Source: Schmidtea polychroa | Lineage: Eukaryota | NCBI GenBank assembly: GCA_044892525.1 | Contig: CM097886.1 | Location: 179,230,312-179,294,311 of the forward strand | Direction of reading: 5' to 3' | Length of the DNA: 64,000 nt | Shown: positions 1 to 12,882 of the stretch, one piece after another | How positions within the stretch are numbered: the first letter of the stretch is position 1 | Layout of the letters: every line of letters begins with the position of its first letter | Position numbers and translations under genes: made by a program | The notes under the pieces: generated by a model | Seen by the model: the letters and a program-made list of their open reading frames with translations, nothing else | Told to the model about the DNA's origin: nothing | The model's database searches: none

Positions 1-646
1 CTTTAATGACTCTCCGTGAAGGTACTTGTGCAGGGGAAAAATCTTTTCAACCTCATCACCTTCCGCTTCGTCAACACACGCAGTAAAAGCTGCTTTCCAT
101 GGTTCGTACTCTTTCATCTTGCCTTCAAAGACAGGTATTTTAATTTTCTGTAGACTTTCCATTTCTCTTTTATGCACGGAATTATTCTTCTTGATTGTAT
201 CATCATTCACATTTTCCTTCTCTTCCATAAAAGATTGATTTGCTTTTCTTTCCATCAATGCCCCAATTATTTGATGTTTTTCCTCGATCTCTTGCAGGTC
301 TTTATTTAAGATTGCAGTGATGTCCAATCTTTGCAATTTTTTACTGATCGTTCTCATATCCCCTAATTCTTCATCTAGACTCTCCTTTTGATCTTCATAT
401 TCCGCCAATCATTCGCTAACATCTTTCCCATTTATATCATTGAGAATCTTGTTTCTCAATCTCGTTAATTTTCCTTTTTTCATTCTCTTTTTCCACAGTC
501 CTTCTTCTAAAATCTCTTCGTCATTGCCCCCGCACAGCCTGAGTGACAAATGAAGTGTCGAACCTACTTGTATGCTATAATCGTTCAATATTCTTTTATT
601 TTCTAACTGCTTTCCTGCGTAGACTAGCATTTGATAATTTACCGGA
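1..646 (-). pseudogene. Second, degenerate copy of the ubiquitin-Gag region of the Bel/Pao element (continues off the left edge of the window)
   Basis: Reverse complement aligns to 6498-7142 with a few percent substitutions. It reads partial Ub (...[12 protein letters not shown]) in frame into Gag ([12 protein letters not shown]...), then has a TGG>TGA nonsense change at 409-411; the frame stays open downstream to the window edge. Homology stops abruptly at 646, mid-ubiquitin. Confidence 0.93.
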
Positions 647-2067
647 TTTGTAATTTGACTGTAATTTTATTGTAATTTGACCATTTTACGCACACAACCC
701 AAACAAAAATGCACACAGACGCGACAAACTAAAGAAGTTACAAGCAAGATAAATAATATAGTTTTGTAAAAATAATAAAAAATAATAAAAAAATAAATAT
801 AAAAGTCAATAAATGAGCTTGGAATGTTTTATCACCCACTCTAATTACCATATAATTATGGGGGCATGCACCAAATATATACACATTTTATTGAAAACCA
901 TTAAGATATACGTGAAAAGTACATTTCAGTAATTTATNNNNNNNNNNNNNNNNNNNNNNNNNNNNNNNNNNNNNNNNNNNNNNNNNNNNNNNNNNNNNNN
1001 NNNNNNNNNNNNNNNNNNNNNNNNNNNNNNNNNNNNNNNNNNNNNNNNNNNNNNNNNNNNNNNNNNNNNNNNNNNNNNNNNNNNNNNNNNNNNNNNNNNN
1101 NNNNNNNNNNNNNNNNNNNNNNNNNNNNNNNNNNNNNNNNNNNNNNNNNNNNNNNNNNNNNNNNNNNNNNNNNNNNNNNNNNNNNNNNNNNNNNNNNNNN
1201 NNNNNNNNNNNNNNNNNNNNNNNNNNNNNNNNNNNNNNNNNNNNNNNNNNNNNNNNNNNNNNNNNNNNNNNNNNNNTGAAAAAGGCAGTGCAGAAAATTC
1301 GTGAGTATCAAAAAACAACGATATATTTGTGATTTATAATAGGCAAAAAACAAAAAAGAACAAATGACAGAAATAAAAACTTTTATTATAGATTCTTTTC
1401 TTTATTACTCGAAACATTTTATCCCGATCCCATGATGATGCCTTCATTTAAACAAATTATTTTATATTTTGATAATTATTTATATTTAAAATATCTGTAA
1501 TTGTTTATCATTAGAATAAAAAAACGCATTATTTCGTGTTTACGAATGTTATTAATCAAAACAAATCCATTAATATNNNNNNNNNNNNNNNNNNNNNNNN
1601 NNNNNNNNNNNNNNNNNNNNNNNNNNNNNNNNNNNNNNNNNNNNNNNNNNNNNNNNNNNNNNNNNNNNNNNNNNNNNNNNNNNNNNNNNNNNNNNNNNNN
1701 NNNNNNNNNNNNNNNNNNNNNNNNNNNNNNNNNNNNNNNCAGATATAACTATATTTTTAAACAATTAAATGATAATTTAGGCTTTTGCTGCAAATAAAAT
1801 ATTAAAAAAAATTTCGACTATAAGAAATTGGAAATGGCTATTTTTCATTTAATATATTATTCGCAGAAAAGCCTTAAATTATCATTTATTTGTTTTAAAA
1901 AATAATAATAATATTATTATTATTTTTTTATTAAATATATTTGAAATTTTAATATTAATTTATAATTTAATTAAAATATTAAAATTCGAATTTTGTTTAA
2001 ACTTGTAATTATTAAAATGCATATATATGCAGTAAATTTTCTCAAGGATATTATAATAAAAATCACA

Positions 2068-5088: not shown

Positions 5089-5093
5089 ACAGA
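5089..5093 (+). repeat. 5-bp target site duplication ACAGA (second copy at 12840-12844)
   Basis: ACAGA lies immediately before the TG of the 5' LTR and immediately after the CA of the 3' LTR. Confidence 0.95.
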
Positions 5094-6036
5094 TGTTTAA
5101 TTCGATGTTCGGGTCTGTGTGCGCCGTTTACTATCCTTGTGTTGTTGGCTGTGGGCGCACACAGACGCATATAGTTGTGGGTGTGGTTTGGCTTTTTTCT
5201 ATCGCGTCTGTGTGCGCGGTCTGGTTAGACCGAATATTCATGGTGTGCGCACACAGACGCGAGCAATGGAAGCTCGGTGGTTGTCATAGGTTTAATGGTG
5301 AATTTTTTATTTGATATTGTAATTTTAATTCGATTATTGTTTGGTAGAATAAGATTTGGGTTTTTTTTTTATCGACGAAATTTTGTGGAAAGTTTGAATT
5401 TGAATTTGGAAGAATTGGTTTTGGTTAAATGATGGATTATGAAGTAGATGATGAATATGAAGAAAACAATTGTGAATTATCAGATGGTGATAAAATGAAT
5501 GCATTTGTTGGTCCGAATAGCTGTTTAATTTACGAATCATCAAAGGAATTAACGTCAAAGAAGTTTTGTTCCCATGAGATTCAATTAATTCAAAATGAGA
5601 CGATAAATAATGTTGCCTCGAAGAGCGATCCGAAAAGCTCAATTATTGGATTGCTTTTAATTGAAAATCAGCATTTTCAAAATGTTGAAGATGCTTTTCG
5701 ATTACTTATGAATATAGAATGCCCCAGGCGTATCAAGCAATTGCATCATGTACTTACTCAACAATTAGAAGTTCAACGATTCGAGTCAAATGTAGGAGTT
5801 CTACTCATAGAAGATGATTGTGTGTATTTCAATGGAAGAAAAATTGGTCAAAGAATGCCATTCAATATAAAAAGTTTCTCAAGTGAAAACTATCTGTCAT
5901 TCGTGTTAGAGGATAATAATGTAGAAATTGCCGACATCTATTTCTCCATCAGAAACGATGAGACAATAACTGACTATATAATATGTGCTTCTATTGCGGA
6001 AAATAAAATTATCGATCGTTGGTTTCGATTCATTCA
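5094..6036 (+). repeat. 5' LTR (943 bp)
   Basis: Starts TGTTTAATTCG and ends TTCATTCA. By eye it differs from the 3' LTR only by a T10 vs T9 run and GGTTAAATG vs GGTTTCAATG. Confidence 0.96.
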
Positions 6037-6328
6037 TGGTAGCAGAGCGTGGTTCCGGCTAGCCAGCCGGAACAAGGTAATTAATATGTATTGTAAGATG
6101 TCTTTTTTGGTTTTATATATATTATGTAAATATTATGTGTTTAATAATATTTTTGTAATTAATAATATTTTGGTAATTAATATGTACTATAAAAAATCTT
6201 GTTTGTCGTCACGCATATTATGTATATATTATAATACTTTTGTAAAATTAAACATCCTCCCTTCCCTACCGAGCGTGGGAAAGTGCTGCTATGGGCCCCA
6301 GCACTCTTTTAAAGGGGGAACAGGGTAA
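5429..6328 (+). CDS. LTR-encoded ORF of unknown function (202 codons inside the LTR, reading on through PBS and leader; 299 aa total)
   Basis: Uninterrupted frame from ATG 5429 in AT-rich DNA, with an acidic N-terminus and globular-looking composition. The part after about 6077 is low-complexity and probably non-coding or intronic. No family recognised. Confidence 0.6.
6037..6054 (+). promoter_or_regulatory. Primer-binding site for initiator tRNA-Met
   Basis: TGGTAGCAGAGCGTGGTT abuts the LTR-terminal CA and is complementary to the 3' end of a eukaryotic tRNA-iMet (...AACCACGCUCUGCUACCA). Confidence 0.9.
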
Positions 6329-6366
6329 AGAACAGAGCTGTGTCAAGGGTGAGGGCGAGCGGGGTA

Positions 6367-6678
6367 ATGGGTTTTGAGTTGCGATGGGAAAGTCAAATAT
6401 TTGTCAAAACTCTTACTGGTAAGACAATTACTCTGGACGTTAAATGGAAGGACACAATTGAAAAGATAAAAGGAAAAATCCAGGACAAAGAAGGAATTCC
6501 GGAAAATTATCAAATGTTAGTATACGCAGGAAAGCAGTTAGAAAATAAAAGAAGATTGAATGATTATAGGATACAAGTAGGGTCGACACTTCATTTGTCA
6601 CTCAGGCTGTGCGGGGGCAATGACGAAGAGATTTTAGAAGAAGGACTGTGGAAAAAGAGAATGAAAAAGGAAAATTAA
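6367..6678 (+). CDS. Diverged ubiquitin domain (6394-6618) forming the N-terminus of Gag; separated from gag-pol in this copy by a 1-nt shift
   Basis: [16 protein letters not shown]...KIQDKEGIP...AGKQLE...[12 protein letters not shown], 53/76 identical to canonical ubiquitin by manual alignment. First in-frame ATG is 6367. The A5 run after ATG 6661 is A6 in the other copy. Confidence 0.92.
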
Positions 6679-9600
6679 CGAGATTAAGAAACAAGATTCT
6701 CAATGATATAAATGGGAAGGATGTTAGCGAATGGTTGGCTGAATATGAAGATCAAAAGGAGAGTCTAGATGAAGAATTAGGGGATCTGAGAACAATCAGT
6801 AAAAAATTGCAAAGATTGGACATCACTGCAATCTTAGATAAAGACCTGCAAGAGATCGAGGAAAAACATCAAATAATTGGGGCATTGATGGAAAGAAAAG
6901 CCAATCAATCTTTTATGGAAGAGAAGGAAAATGTGAATGATGATACCATCAAGAAGAGTAACTCCGTGCATAAAAGAAAACTGGAAAGTCTACAGAAAAT
7001 TACAATACCGGTCTTTGAAGGCATGATGAAAGAGTACGAACCATGGAAAGCAGCTTTTACGGCGTGTGTTGACGAAGCGGAAGGTGATGAGGTTGAAAAG
7101 ATGTTTCACCTGCACCAGTACCTTCACGGAGAGCCATTAAAGTTAATTGAAAATCTAGGATATTCGGCAGAGGCTTATCAAATGGCAAAAGAGAAGTTGG
7201 ATAGGCGATATGGTGGGGATGAAAGGATATATTTATCAATGTTAGAGGAGATGGAACAGTTCAGGCCAATTCGAGAAGGAGATTTGAAGGATCTAGACTC
7301 ATTTGTTGGATTATTAGAAACGGTCACCTTGCGATTTAAATCCACTGGGAAAGAATCCGAGTTAAAGACTGGATATCTTTTTCAAAAGTGTTTGGGCAAG
7401 TTAACGACGAATCTTGTGTATAATTGGAAAAAAGACAATATAGAAAAGGAATTGCGGGAGACGATAGAGGATTTGAGAAGATGGATACAACAAGAAGCGG
7501 AGATCCTAAGGTCCACTAACGAGGTCGTGTATGGGACTAAACCAAGCACCAGGGCTTATGATGGGTCAAGAGTAGAAGGGGGGGGGGTGTCTAGGGGAAG
7601 AGAAAGATTCAATCCTGGAGGTCGGACGCATTTTACGGGGCAACCAGATGGCAGAGTTAAAAGTGGAACAGTTATACAGGTGAATAACTCTAACGGCTAT
7701 AGGTCAGAGTGTGTACACTGTGGTGGTCAACATTACCTAGACCAATGTGACAAGTTCAAGCAACTCACAATTCCTAAAAGGAAGAAAGTCATCGAAGAAA
7801 AGAAACTGTGCAGGAATTGCTTCAAAAGAAATCACATGGCCAAGGAATGTCGTAAAGAATCTTTCTGCAAGGTTACCGGATGTAAGCAAAGGCACAACGA
7901 ATTATTACATGAAAGACAAATTAGTGAGGAGAGTGAAAAAGGTAACAACACGATGCTGACCCAGAAAGGGATGAACGAGAAAAACCTAAGACCTTACCTT
8001 AGTTTAAGAACAATTCCAATCTACCTGGAAAATGGGAACAAGAAAATAAAAGTCAATGCACTGTTAGATGATGCAAGCTCAGTAAGCTACATCAATCTAA
8101 GAATTTTAAAGGAGCTTGGGTTAAAAGGGGTGGAAAAGAGGACACCGATAGGGGTTATCGGAGGTAATGTCCAACAAATGATGGCTACTCCAGTGACCAT
8201 GAAGTTAATTAGTAATGACGGCCGATTGACGAAAAACTTCAACGCACTGGCCGTAACAAATATCACGGGAGAAATGAAGGTAGTAAATTGGGCCAGAGAA
8301 AAACATAAGTGGACTCACCTGAAGGGCATCCATTTTCCGATGCTAGACGAGAGACAGGCAGTTGAAGTGTTAATTGGCGCGGATTATTTAACGCTTCAAC
8401 GAGCACTCAAAGAAATCGATGGTAAGTTGGATGAACCGATTGCCCGTTTAACGCCACTTGGCTGGACATGTGTGGGAAGAACCTCGGTGGGAAGAACTTG
8501 GAACCATCAAAGCAATTTCATACGAACGTTCTTCGGTAATGGCGAGGATTTGCAACGACAGATGGAGCGATTTTGGGAAATTGATGATAGCGGCTTAAAG
8601 GAAAATATATTTGCAGCGAAAGACCAAGCGATTTATGAGAAAACCAAATCTGAAATGAAGAAAGTAGACGGACATTTCGAGGTAAAAGTGCCATGGAAAG
8701 AGTCACCAACAGCTTTGCCCAATAGTGAAAAAATGGCAGAAAGTCGACTGCGAAGTTTGGACAAGAGGCTTGAAAAGGAAGACTTACGAACTGAGTATCA
8801 GGATATTTTGAATGGTTACCTGAAAAAAGATTATATAAGTATTGTAAAAGAGAAAATGATGCCTGGAGATTCGGAATGGATATTACCACACTTTCCCGTG
8901 GTTAGAAGAGATAAGGACACCACGAAAGTGCGTATTGTGTTTGATGCGGCAGCCAGGTGTAATGGGGTGGGACTTAATGATATGGTGGAAGTTGGCCCAA
9001 AATTACAAAATGAAGTTTTTGATATTTTAATTCGTTTTCGTCGATTTTCCGTAGCTGTTGTTTGTGATATAGCAGAAATGTATCTGCAAATAAGAATGGC
9101 TCTTGAAGACAGGAAATATCATCGGTTTTTATGGTCAACTGGGGGGAAAATTATTAAGTATGAGTTTAATCGGTTAGTGTTTGGTCTTAATGCATCTCCA
9201 TTCCTTGCCCAGCTAGTCGCGCAAGAGAATGCAAAGAAATTTGAAAAGGACTACCCAAAAGTGACAGAATCTATTTGCAAGTCTACGTATATGGACGACA
9301 CCATGGACTCTGTTGATTCTGAAGAAGAAGGAATGAGGCTGAAAGAGGGGCTAGAAACAGTTTGGGGCAATGCCGGAATGCGGCCTAGAAAATGGCTGTC
9401 CAACTCGGAAAGAATTATGGCGACAATCCCAATTGAAGAACGAGCTAAAACACTGAATATTGAAAAGGAAACGACAATGGCCGTCAAGACCCTAGGTTTG
9501 AAATGGTACTCGGAAGACGATGAATTTAGTTTTCAAGTAGATCTGCCGAATGAAGAATGTTTATCGAAAAGAAAGGTATTGAGCATGGTGGCAAGAATCT

Positions 9601-11903
9601 TTGATCCATTGGGACTGTTAGGCCCATTCATAATCATAGGGAAAAAGATTATTCAGAAGTTGTGGTTGTCAGGGCTTGATTGGGACGAAAAGCTACCTCC
9701 AAAGTTGAATAAAGAAATACACAAGTGGGTAGAGGACACAAATAATCTCGGAGATCTGCGAATTGCGAGATGTTTAAGGACTCAAATGAAAAATGAATGG
9801 CAATTACATGTCTTCTCCGATGCGTCAAGCACCGCATATGGGTCAGCTATATATCTACGGGAAGAAACTATGGTGGGAAATAAAAGTGTGTTAATTGCGT
9901 CAAGGGCAAAGGTAGCTCCAGTGCAAATTATAAGTATACCAAGGTTGGAATTAATGGCCGCGTGTACTGGAGTTAAATTAGCAAGACGGGTTTCAGAAGT
10001 GCTCGGGAAACCGATGAGCGAGATATGGTTCTGGTCCGATAGTAAAGACGTAATACATTGGGTTCGAAATTATTCGAGACTATTCAAGCCATTCGTAGCT
10101 AATCGAATTGGGTTCATTCAAGAAATGACCAAACCTGGGCAATGGCATTATGTTCCAACAAGTGAAAATCCATCGGATTTGATCACAAGAGGATTATCGG
10201 CATCGGATTTGATAAACAGCACCATGTGGTGGGAGGGACCGAAATTTCTACTAGAACCAATGGGAAATTGGCCAGCGACGGAGTTAAACCAATCCAGTGT
10301 AACAAAGGAGTTGCGAAAGGAAATAACAATGATGGCGTGTGTAGAGGGGCAAAGACGAATAGGGAACACGGACTGTTTCAAAGTAGAAACCTTTTCCTCA
10401 TGGCAGAGATTGATCAGGATGCGGGCCTGGGTGGAGCGATTTATTTTGAACACGAGAACGACACAGTCCCAAAGAACCACAGGGCAACTGACAACTGAGG
10501 AGCTTAAAAGAATGGAACTCAATGTAATTAAAGGAGAGCAGGCGAAGTTTTTCTCTGAGGACCTGGCACGACTTATCAAGAATGAAAGGGTAGATATCAG
10601 AAGCCGTTTGTTAAAGTTGACACCAGTTTTAGATGAGATGACTGTGTTACGAAGTAATAGCAGCATAATTCATGCAAAGAATTTACCATGGGAGACAAAA
10701 TATCCAATAATTCTATCGGACAAGAGTTGGGTCACCAGACTAATCATCAAAGATTGCCATGAAAGTTTGAGCCATTATGCAGGAACTCAACATGTCTTAA
10801 GTGTGTTGAACGAAAAATATTGGATTTTGAAGGCCAAAGTAATGATCAAACAATGTGAGACAGATTGCGGAATGTGTAGAAAAAGAAACGCTAAAGGAAT
10901 GAGTCAAATAATGGCACCGTTACCGGCGTTCAGGGTTTCAGAACCTTTTAGAGCCTTTGTTCACTCGGCAGTAGATTTTGCAGGACCGTTTGAAACTAAA
11001 GTAGGCAGAGGAAAGGTGAGAAATAAAAGGTACATTTGCCTATTCGTATGTTTAAAGTCACGGGCGGTGCATATTGAAATGGCATATGGGTTGGACACAG
11101 ACTCATTCATTCGAGCGTTTATGAGGTTTGCAGCGACGCGGGGGATGCCAAAATTGATGATCTCAGACAATGGCACAAATTTCATAGGCGCCACTTCTAC
11201 AGTAAAGGATTTTGTAATCGACAACTATAAAACTCAAAGAGAGTTGTCGAAGCATCAATGTAGTTGGATCTTCAATCCTCCATCAGCACCGCATTTTGGG
11301 GGAGTTTTTGAGTCCATGATCAAATCGGCAAAGCGAGCTATGAATGCCATACTGACAAGTGCAGATGTGACCGACGAAGAATTGGGAAATGTGTTGACAA
11401 GGGCTGAAATGTTGATAAATTCTCGGCCCTTAGTGGTTCAGGCTGTAGACAGTAAGGAAGACGCTGTGCTAACTCCAAATCATTTATTAATTGCCGGTTG
11501 GAAAGGAGAAGCTGTGGAAAATATAGAAGGGAAGAAAATGTCATGTACGGTCTTTCGGTGGAGACGAATTCAGGAGTTAACCGAGCACTTCTGGCGGCGA
11601 TGGATGAAAGAATTGGTCCCGTGCTGGCGGCAAAGGGCGAAATGGAATAAGATAGAAGATGATGTCAAGACAGGGTCAACAGTGTGGGTTTTAGACAAAA
11701 GGAATGAGTATGGGAAGTGGCCAATGGGGAGAGTAATCGAAGTGATACCGGGAGAAGACGGAAAGCTACGCGTGATGAGGATAAAATGTGAAGGAAAGGA
11801 GGTATTAAGATGCATATCTAAATTATGCTTGATCACAAAAGAAGGAGAAGTTAATGGGGATGTGAGATTGACACCAAAGTGTCAAGGGGGGGAGGATGTT
11901 TAA
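6648..11903 (+). CDS. gag-pol: Bel/Pao Gag-Pol polyprotein (1751 aa as annotated)
   Basis: DUF1759-type Gag (IPVFEG...W..F), zinc knuckles [13 protein letters not shown] / [14 protein letters not shown] / [15 protein letters not shown], aspartic protease ALLDDAS, RT ([24 protein letters not shown]...YMDD), RNase H ([28 protein letters not shown]), integrase HHCC plus VDFAGP/SDNG/GGVFE core and C-terminal FWRRW region. Stop codon lies 7 nt inside the 3' LTR. Confidence 0.97.
11884..11896 (+). promoter_or_regulatory. Polypurine tract
   Basis: AAGGGGGGGAGGA directly precedes the TG of the 3' LTR. Confidence 0.9.
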
Positions 11904-12839
11904 TTCGATGTTCGGGTCTGTGTGCGCCGTTTACTATCCTTGTGTTGTTGGCTGTGGGCGCACACAGACGCATATAGTTGTGGGTGTGGTTTGGCTTTTT
12001 TCTATCGCGTCTGTGTGCGCGGTCTGGTTAGACCGAATATTCATGGTGTGCGCACACAGACGCGAGCAATGGAAGCTCGGTGGTTGTCATAGGTTTAATG
12101 GTGAATTTTTTATTTGATATTGTAATTTTAATTCGATTATTGTTTGGTAGAATAAGATTTGGGTTTTTTTTTATCGACGAAATTTTGTGGAAAGTTTGAA
12201 TTTGAATTTGGAAGAATTGGTTTTGGTTTCAATGATGGATTATGAAGTAGATGATGAATATGAAGAAAACAATTGTGAATTATCAGATGGTGATAAAATG
12301 AATGCATTTGTTGGTCCGAATAGCTGTTTAATTTACGAATCATCAAAGGAATTAACGTCAAAGAAGTTTTGTTCCCATGAGATTCAATTAATTCAAAATG
12401 AGACGATAAATAATGTTGCCTCGAAGAGCGATCCGAAAAGCTCAATTATTGGATTGCTTTTAATTGAAAATCAGCATTTTCAAAATGTTGAAGATGCTTT
12501 TCGATTACTTATGAATATAGAATGCCCCAGGCGTATCAAGCAATTGCATCATGTACTTACTCAACAATTAGAAGTTCAACGATTCGAGTCAAATGTAGGA
12601 GTTCTACTCATAGAAGATGATTGTGTGTATTTCAATGGAAGAAAAATTGGTCAAAGAATGCCATTCAATATAAAAAGTTTCTCAAGTGAAAACTATCTGT
12701 CATTCGTGTTAGAGGATAATAATGTAGAAATTGCCGACATCTATTTCTCCATCAGAAACGATGAGACAATAACTGACTATATAATATGTGCTTCTATTGC
12801 GGAAAATAAAATTATCGATCGTTGGTTTCGATTCATTCA
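11897..12839 (+). repeat. 3' LTR (943 bp)
   Basis: Near-identical direct repeat of 5094-6036. Confidence 0.96.
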
Positions 12840-12882
12840 ACAGATCTTAACACAAATGACTCCAATAATTCAATTACGATAA
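12232..12882 (+). CDS. 3'-LTR copy of the LTR-encoded ORF, terminating in host flank
   Basis: Same MMDYEV...DRWFRFI sequence. There is no stop inside the LTR, so it reads through the TSD to TAA at 12880-12882. Confidence 0.45.
   Translation: MMDYEVDDEYEENNCELSDGDKMNAFVGPNSCLIYESSKELTSKKFCSHEIQLIQNETINNVASKSDPKSSIIGLLLIENQHFQNVEDAFRLLMNIECPRRIKQLHHVLTQQLEVQRFESNVGVLLIEDDCVYFNGRKIGQRMPFNIKSFSSENYLSFVLEDNNVEIADIYFSIRNDETITDYIICASIAENKIIDRWFRFIQQILTQMTPIIQLR
12805..12810 (+). terminator. Candidate LTR polyadenylation signal AATAAA (also 6002-6007)
   Basis: Canonical hexamer about 30 nt before the LTR end; AATAAA is common in AT-rich DNA. Confidence 0.4.

What the first reader, a model, noticed from the sequence alone, without database searches (positions are those of the whole stretch)
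6367..6700. Bel/Pao retrotransposon with a captured, remodelled ubiquitin fused to the N-terminus of Gag
Seen: a 76-residue ubiquitin-like domain (53/76 identical to ubiquitin) sits directly before gag. In the independent minus-strand copy (1-646) it is in frame with Gag, so the family consensus is a single Ub-Gag-Pol ORF of about 1845 aa from ATG 6367. The di-Gly and K6/11/27/29/33/48 are kept. K63 is replaced by V, the hydrophobic patch is altered (I44V, V70S), and R42M and R74C give LRLCGG, which both copies share. Established: linear Ub fusions are cleaved after GG by host deubiquitinases; uncleaved ones feed the UFD degradation pathway; cytopathic pestiviruses use captured ubiquitin as a processing signal; Ub fused to retroviral Gag can recruit ESCRT. 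Inference: the element may use host DUBs to release Gag with an N-terminal Asn (NDEE..., a tertiary N-degron), to tune Gag half-life, or as a folding or ESCRT aid. I do not know of a described Ub-Gag Bel/Pao element but cannot search to confirm novelty.
Basis: partly seen in the sequence, partly recalled or inferred. Interest (0 to 1): 0.88.

Follow-up and report, generated by a model that had tools for sequence, protein, structure and literature searches.

The report
Ubiquitin spacer in a jumping gene
A family of flatworm jumping genes has a captured, selection-maintained ubiquitin directly in front of its coat protein, and that ubiquitin likely serves as a host-cut spacer that frees the coat protein from a changeable front piece stitched from host messenger RNAs inside the element's own terminal repeat.

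Summary
The window copy is frameshifted, but 52 of 64 family loci read open from di-Gly into Gag, and the ubiquitin is under purifying selection like Gag (omega about 0.3). In 58 of 80 loci the Gag frame is open for 100 or more codons inside the 5' LTR. There it carries spliced host mRNA pieces (PSMA6, SNF8, CCT3, Rab, DUSP, coatomer) and runs through the PBS and a variable linker into ubiquitin. The tested pieces mostly evolve neutrally as protein. Nine unnamed database proteins share the ubiquitin-Gag junction; two carry an Hsp90 piece upstream. The residue after di-Gly varies (N, S, M, Q, G), so the Asn N-degron idea is not general. Best reading: host deubiquitinases cut after GG and free Gag from whatever the LTR has captured. 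Cleavage, transcription start and translation are untested. This scan noted the same system before on other DNA of this genome; ten literature searches found no description.

The parts
5089..5093 (+). 5' target-site duplication (same 5 bases at 12840-12844)
5094..6036 (+). 5' LTR, TG...CA, 943 bp, 99.7% identical to 3' LTR
5094..5263 (+). LTR head shared among LTR types whose remaining sequence differs; rich in inverted repeats (fold of 5094-5290 z=-4.6)
5429..6036 (+). LTR-encoded ORF (about 203 codons from first Met) in the frame that in most copies continues into ubiquitin-Gag-Pol
5481..5986 (+). Captured host mRNA piece: four exons of a single-locus host gene (G000:C1:240.78 Mb, minus strand) joined without introns, 94-100% identical
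6002..6007 (+). AATAAA, likely poly(A) signal, 35 nt before the LTR end; present in the last 70 nt of 75 of 80 loci
6037..6054 (+). Primer-binding site complementary to the 3' end of a host tRNA-Met; read in frame as GSRAWF
6074..6082 (+). Splice-donor-like AAG|GTA motif, kept in 79 of 80 loci; use untested
6037..6390 (+). Linker between LTR and ubiquitin: variable in length among copies, neutral as protein, mostly frame-preserving; broken near 6314 in this copy
6391..6618 (+). Ubiquitin-like domain ending LRLCGG
6619..7910 (+). Gag (N-terminal helical region, DUF1759 from about 6990, three Cys/His knuckles 7710-7910); frameshift near 6665 private to this copy
7911..11903 (+). Pol in the same frame: protease motif 8058, RT YMDD 9288, Peptidase_A17, integrase DDE motifs 10971-11327, DUF5641; stop lies in the first bases of the 3' LTR
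11881..11896 (+). Polypurine tract
11897..12839 (+). 3' LTR with the same captured ORF
1..649 (-). Truncated second copy: ubiquitin residues 39-76 in frame with Gag, premature stop in Gag

Best explanation
The element carries a ubiquitin domain, kept by purifying selection, between Gag and an upstream open frame that begins inside the 5' LTR, and it likely makes one polyprotein that host deubiquitinases would cut after GG, so that Gag gets a fixed N-terminus whatever the LTR-encoded leader contains. Shown: the layout, the open frame, the host origin and intron loss of leader pieces, selection on ubiquitin but not on linker or PSMA6/SNF8 pieces, and the same junction in distant relatives. Inferred: transcription starts near the LTR head, so the captured pieces lie in a long R region with the poly(A) signal at the LTR's end; reverse transcriptase switches template onto co-packaged host mRNAs; only captures that leave the frame open let ribosomes reach Gag and so spread; the donor-like motif behind the PBS may suppress 5' polyadenylation through U1, as recalled for HIV-1. 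The released ubiquitin is predicted to be poorly conjugated (R42, R72, R74 vary).
For: Ubiquitin within 1.2 kb of the PBS in 76 of 80 loci; PBS-to-ubiquitin distance a multiple of three in 55 of 76, open without stop in 51 of 76. Gag frame open for 100 or more codons upstream of the PBS in 58 of 80 loci, against 1 and 0 in the other sense frames. Pfam hits in that frame to Proteasome, EAP30, Cpn60_TCP1, Ras, DSPc, Adaptin_N. Parents found in G000: SNF8 96% DNA, CCT3 99% protein, window piece = 4 spliced exons. Variants shared by 3 or more loci: ubiquitin 22 silent/21 replacement, omega about 0.30, p=1e-4, like Gag (0.27); linker 0.83; PSMA6 piece 0.98. Versus host ubiquitin dS 1.4, dN 0.24. 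AATAAA 35, 41, 44, 53 or 59 nt before the LTR end, 73 of 79 hits in the Gag frame; background 43 of 720 windows. L71, L73, G75, G76 invariant in 7 full-length element ubiquitins. Eight of 203 database Gag relatives have ubiquitin by phmmer, one more by eye; they cluster on the Gag tree (3 changes, shuffled mean 12.6, 0 of 500); P0126 and P0304 carry an Hsp90 piece before ubiquitin. A second family recaptured a fresh unit from host polyubiquitin (pS 0.02-0.12). Pestivirus precedent: PMC8310069, passages.
Against: No transcription start, translation or cleavage data. R74C, R42M, I44V and V70S (and R72G in family 2) may impair deubiquitinase binding; an insertion at R74 made conjugates resistant to USP7 and UCHL3 (PMC9773336, passages; a different change). 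21 of 76 loci have the linker out of frame and only 18 of 34 distinct lengths are multiples of three. Shared linker indels are 3n in 6 of 8 cases in family 1 but 3 of 8 in family 2, and family 2 shows 3 shared stop-creating linker variants. The stop deficit in the PSMA6 piece is weak (1 of 86, p=0.08). CCT3 shared differences are 4 silent/0 replacement, which may be host-side change or selection on the piece. P0299 ends in EG, not GG. Out-of-frame ATGs lie between the LTR head and the ORF start in most copies. DNA around the outside proteins could not be obtained.
Confidence: 0.65

Rival explanations
1. One reading: transcripts start near the LTR end, the captured pieces sit in untranslated U3, and translation starts at a Met in the linker or just before ubiquitin, which acts as a cleavable N-terminal tag (expression, folding or N-end control).
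For: Poly(A) signal at the LTR end is the usual place for a short R (general knowledge). Family 1 has a Met eight codons before ubiquitin. Linker and PSMA6/SNF8 pieces are neutral as protein.
Against: It gives no reason for unrelated captures to be sense and in the Gag frame across the PBS or for AATAAA-to-end spacings to differ by multiples of three. Several family-2 linkers (L083, L095, L107) have no in-frame Met before the first ubiquitin. The residue after GG varies.
Confidence: 0.15
2. The domain is no longer cut and stays on Gag as a ubiquitin-like domain that tunes turnover (UFD route), ESCRT contact or assembly.
For: 23 substitutions, including tail and I44 patch; K48 kept in all 7 full-length element ubiquitins.
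Against: L73, G75, G76 and the exact junction are kept across 30-36% identical elements, while I44, which most ubiquitin receptors need (recalled), is changed in 6 of 7. An uncut product would leave 250-350 variable residues on Gag.
Confidence: 0.12
3. The captured pieces are the selected trait: either as RNA camouflage against piRNA silencing (matching essential host mRNAs, turning over fast) or as dominant-negative protein fragments; ubiquitin exists to release them. Not exclusive of the best reading.
For: Identified donors are core housekeeping genes, several in proteostasis and trafficking; the PSMA6 piece has over 1300 candidate places, most seen so far in LTRs; LTR types are swapped between two Gag families.
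Against: Protein-level selection is absent for PSMA6 (0.98) and SNF8; two antisense pieces (hAT in L093, SelR in L060) also occur; abundant mRNAs are the expected by-catch of template switching. No small-RNA data.
Confidence: 0.08

Closest known systems
BEL/Pao LTR retrotransposons; possibly the Flow superfamily (de la Chaux and Wagner 2011, PMC3118150, passages)
   Same: LTRs, 5-bp TSD, tRNA PBS, PPT, single Gag-Pol frame with DUF1759, three knuckles, Peptidase_A17, DUF5641. Flow includes two planarian and three cnidarian families; nearest named ubiquitin-less relative here is from a jellyfish.
   Different: Ubiquitin before Gag, ORF starting in the LTR, host mosaics in the LTR. The word ubiquitin does not occur in that paper's main text. 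Flow membership not tested.
Ubiquitin insertions of cytopathogenic pestiviruses (BVDV Osloss, CP1, CP Rit; PMC8310069 and PMC13517609, passages)
   Same: Captured cellular ubiquitin, in one or two copies, sometimes preceded by another host mRNA piece, placed so that host hydrolases create a defined N-terminus inside a polyprotein.
   Different: There sporadic, near-native and in an RNA virus; here fixed in a retrotransposon clade, diverged 20-50%, under long-term selection, upstream of Gag; cleavage here is not shown.
LTR-mediated retrocopies (Tan et al. 2016, PMC5131818, passages) and maize Bs1
   Same: Intron-less pieces of one or several host mRNAs joined inside an LTR element, attributed to template switching, often sense and in frame.
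   Different: There the pieces replace internal sequence and mostly cripple the element; here they lie in both LTRs of elements that keep Gag or Gag-Pol, in frame with Gag and behind a ubiquitin.
Burro/GYPSM1 giant gypsy elements of planarians (PMC6431247, passages)
   Same: Planarian LTR elements with captured domains, including a Ubi2/SUMO-like motif in the polyprotein.
   Different: Gypsy, about 30 kb, extra domains lie downstream of an N-terminal Gag; no LTR-encoded leader described in the passages read.

Membership tests
BEL/Pao LTR retrotransposon | TG...CA LTRs, short TSD, tRNA PBS, PPT | tested here: met
BEL/Pao LTR retrotransposon | Single Gag-Pol frame, order PR-RT-RH-IN, Pao-type Pfam domains, three Cys/His knuckles | tested here: met
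   (motif names recalled, positions computed)
BEL/Pao LTR retrotransposon | RT phylogeny with named reference elements | not tested
   No named reference set in hand; tree was of Gag with mostly unnamed rows
Flow superfamily | Groups with the Hydra, Nematostella and Schmidtea Flow families | not testable with these tools
Canonical ubiquitin | Sequence family and C-terminal di-Gly | tested here: met
   PF00240, 53/76, GG
Canonical ubiquitin | Intact R42/R72/R74 and L8-I44-V70 patch | tested here: not met
   R42M, R74C, I44V, V70S; R42 and R72 matter for E1 recognition (PMC7047443, passage)
Pestivirus-type ubiquitin processing signal | Ubiquitin in frame with GG directly before the downstream protein's N-terminus | tested here: met
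   52 of 64 loci; homologous junction in outside proteins
Pestivirus-type ubiquitin processing signal | Cleavage after GG by host hydrolases | not testable with these tools
   needs a biochemical assay
LTR-mediated retrocopy (Tan et al. 2016) | Intron loss relative to parent gene | tested here: met
   four exons joined
LTR-mediated retrocopy (Tan et al. 2016) | Host piece lies in the internal region between the LTRs | tested here: not met
   pieces are in both LTRs; the recaptured polyubiquitin of family 2 is internal
LTR-mediated retrocopy (Tan et al. 2016) | Microsimilarity at fusion points | not tested
   pre-capture LTR states not established

The most novel reading that the evidence does not exclude
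An old, multi-host clade of BEL/Pao elements has replaced Gag's start codon with a host-cleaved ubiquitin, turning a long R region of the LTR into a translated, exchangeable cassette that keeps sampling host mRNAs without harming Gag, and uses this turnover to escape or hold hostage piRNA silencing.
Probability: 0.3. Interest if true: 0.92.

Novelty: new variant of a known kind. Interest (0 to 1): 0.75.

Why it matters
It would be a heritable, long-lived use of captured ubiquitin as a polyprotein processing signal in a retrotransposon, so far known to me only from sporadic pestivirus isolates. It also gives a reason why one element family can scatter over a thousand host-gene mosaics through a genome: the spacer makes in-frame capture nearly free. 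That bears on exon shuffling, on false gene models in planarian annotation, and on how piRNA defence tells transposon from host RNA. Each step is testable with standard RNA and protein methods.

Tried and rejected
Programmed frameshift at the window's break: rejected, the break is in 1 of 64 rows. Horizontal origin of the CCT3 piece: suggested by 63% identity to the first host hit and nearest named hits in parasitic flatworms, rejected when a 99% identical host gene was found. Expression: no RNA holder listed; four contig sets laid, three only guessed to be RNA; they show the in-frame state at the break and no joint among the 15 rows shown (10 not shown); contigs cannot give start, strand or level, so this is not used as evidence. 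First homolog search was swamped by polyubiquitins. Metagenome DNA for outside proteins: nothing for P0126; 79 loci for P0318 were ubiquitin genes with no Gag-Pol match. Single-sequence fold had mean pLDDT 37.7, unusable. Atlas gave no usable hit. Host PSMA6 and coatomer parent genes not isolated from the element copies. The exon-3 test did not run, the script stopped before three segments, and the L040 rows used wrong-strand coordinates; none is used. L192's short form fits a microhomology deletion better than splicing. The careful tree did not finish; the quick tree is cited.

Full report
Observation. It lies in a complete element: LTRs 5094-6036 and 11897-12839 (99.7% alike), 5-bp TSD, PBS, PPT, and a 1759-codon Gag-Pol frame with BEL/Pao domains. 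The PBS matches a host tRNA-Met. In this copy ubiquitin and Gag are out of frame, but that break is seen in 1 of 64 rows, and 52 of 64 non-redundant family loci are open from GG into Gag. The minus-strand copy has only residues 39-76 and a stop in Gag. The host is a flatworm, probably a planarian (nearest named CCT3 hits; inference); I did not establish the species.

Family survey. The ubiquitin region gave 475 candidates, 40 scored, 30 fetched. The LTR-PBS junction has 223 exact matches; I fetched 80 of the first 82 listed, all on C1, skipping two tandem neighbours. They include a few segmental duplicates, four of which were dropped from the selection tests. Ubiquitin lies within 1.2 kb of the PBS in 76 of 80. 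Two Gag families about 33% identical share the junction: family 1 (window type, one ubiquitin ending LRLCGG) and family 2 (ending LGLAGG; pol-less forms have two units; a pol-bearing relative, L182, has one).

The frame starts in the LTR. Upstream of the PBS the Gag frame is open for 100 or more codons in 58 of 80 loci, against 1 and 0 in the other sense frames. The PBS-to-ubiquitin distance is a multiple of three in 55 of 76 and stop-free in 51 of 76; by distinct lengths it is 18 of 34, and six of the seven lengths shared by three or more loci are multiples of three. Nine natural linkers would be open by chance in 0-3.6% of shuffles (they are related, so not independent). LTRs share a head of about 170 bp and then differ. 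Of 36 non-redundant LTR ORFs, Pfam assigns many to proteasome alpha (PSMA6 by PDB match), SNF8/EAP30, CCT3, Ras-family (Rab1-like by eye), dual-specificity phosphatase and adaptin N (coatomer gamma by eye), often two per ORF. Of 198 ORFs in the other frames, sense hits to host families were in copies whose main frame is broken (six of the same families, one new LIM domain); antisense hits near the LTR end were a hAT piece and a SelR piece; a few transposon-domain hits farther out are probably flanking DNA. Parents: SNF8 96% DNA, CCT3 99% protein, and the window's own piece is four exons of one host gene joined without introns.

LTR anatomy. AATAAA lies in the last 70 nt of 75 of 80 LTRs (background 43 of 720 windows), mostly 35, 41, 44, 53 or 59 nt from the end, 73 of 79 hits in the Gag frame. 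AAG|GTA follows about 40 nt after the LTR end in 79 of 80. So U5 is short and the captured ORF is in U3 or R. Since an untranslated U3 has no reason to keep frame with Gag, I infer a long R. Suppression of the 5' poly(A) site by the donor-like motif is an analogy recalled from HIV-1, untested. First in-frame ATGs have -3 A in 15 of 28 against 148 of 416 off-frame ATGs (p=0.07): weak.

Selection. Against host ubiquitin the family-1 domain has dS 1.4 and dN 0.24. Among variants shared by three or more loci, omega is about 0.30 for ubiquitin (p=1e-4), 0.27 for Gag, 0.83 for the linker; private variants run 0.7-1.0. In family 2 the Gag-proximal unit gives 0.12 and the newer unit 0.48 (p=0.075). 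The newer unit is a fresh capture from a host polyubiquitin gene (pS 0.02-0.12). PSMA6 pieces give 0.98, SNF8 shows no silent excess, CCT3 shows 4 silent and 0 replacement shared differences, unpolarised. Against the model: family-2 linker indels are 3n in only 3 of 8 shared cases and three shared stop variants appear.

Beyond this genome. Gag searches gave 203 proteins; eight carry ubiquitin by phmmer (P0126, P0158, P0298, P0299, P0302, P0304, P0318, P0334) and P0303 has a tail by eye. All are unnamed ENA, JGI or MetaClust records, so host range is unknown and some may be planarian. The junction precedes the same Gag N-terminal helix; GG is present in eight of nine. Several relatives without ubiquitin in the called protein start with Met at about this point. 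On a quick Gag-core tree (136 rows; 48 of 180 hits dropped as too short) the 13 ubiquitin rows need 3 changes against 12.6 shuffled; they form two adjacent groups, monophyly unresolved. P0126 and P0304 have an Hsp90 piece before ubiquitin. In seven full-length element ubiquitins L71, L73, G75, G76 and core residues are invariant, while R42, R72, R74 vary and I44 differs in six. The residue after GG is N, S, M, Q or G.

Mechanism. Shown: layout, frame, host origin, selection pattern, distant homologs. Inferred: one polyprotein (LTR leader, linker, ubiquitin, Gag-Pol), cut after GG by host deubiquitinases; captures arise by template switching and persist if they keep the frame; the freed domain is poorly conjugated. 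Confidence 0.65. Rivals: start near ubiquitin with untranslated captures (0.15), uncut domain (0.12), captures themselves selected (0.08).

Known work. Ten searches of the held library found no ubiquitin-Gag BEL/Pao element or LTR-encoded leader of this kind. I read term-matched passages only of PMC3118150, PMC5131818, PMC6431247, PMC9289625, PMC8310069, PMC13517609, PMC9773336, PMC7047443, PMC11410931 and bioRxiv 10.64898/2025.12.11.693146; other papers were seen as listings. Supplements, Repbase reports, Dfam, GyDB and the 2018 planarian genome paper were not seen and could describe these families. Four earlier AI notes of this scan describe the same system on other DNA of this genome; I reached my reading before opening them, and they are not independent support.

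Verdict. Real feature, new variant of a known kind, interest 0.75.

Noticed in passing
window 14722-63593: About 16.2-kb AT-rich unit repeated three times in tandem at 94-99.96% identity, with internal inverted repeats and microsatellites.
   Followed up: no
L032, L034, L048, L076, L079, L096 (internal about 3.05 kb); L035, L040, L107 (about 3.5 kb): Pol-less derivatives of both families keep one frame open for 955-1157 codons, including a tail after Gag that is neutral as protein; perhaps to avoid nonsense-mediated decay.
   Followed up: partly
L035:2115-2342: Second ubiquitin of family 2 is a recombinant: first half nearly identical to a host polyubiquitin unit, second half closer to the pol-bearing relative L182.
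   Followed up: partly
L192 (G000:C2:174.92 Mb, tandem array): Internal deletion joins the PBS leader in frame to only the last 28 residues of ubiquitin, keeping the GG-Gag junction.
   Followed up: partly
P0304 residues 9-14: Reads HF-GSRA, like the peptide that the PBS gives in these elements, suggesting read-through from the LTR in a distant relative; DNA not in hand.
   Followed up: partly
G000:C1:79.33 Mb onward (L165): tRNA-Met genes in a 454-bp tandem array; 1228 pattern matches genome-wide.
   Followed up: partly
window 6293-6298: GGGCCC palindrome in the linker, found within 400 nt of the PBS in 42 of 80 loci, 0 of 80 in a control window; possible RNA dimer signal.
   Followed up: no
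L143 and L163: Two CCT3 paralogs in the genome; the captured piece comes from the one on C2.
   Followed up: partly
L093 and L060, upstream of PBS: Antisense hAT-dimerisation and SelR matches next to the LTR end; L093 is still open 139 codons in the Gag frame.
   Followed up: no
L031, L100, L177, L189, L196: In-frame tandem repeats have expanded inside the LTR ORF or the linker without breaking the frame.
   Followed up: no
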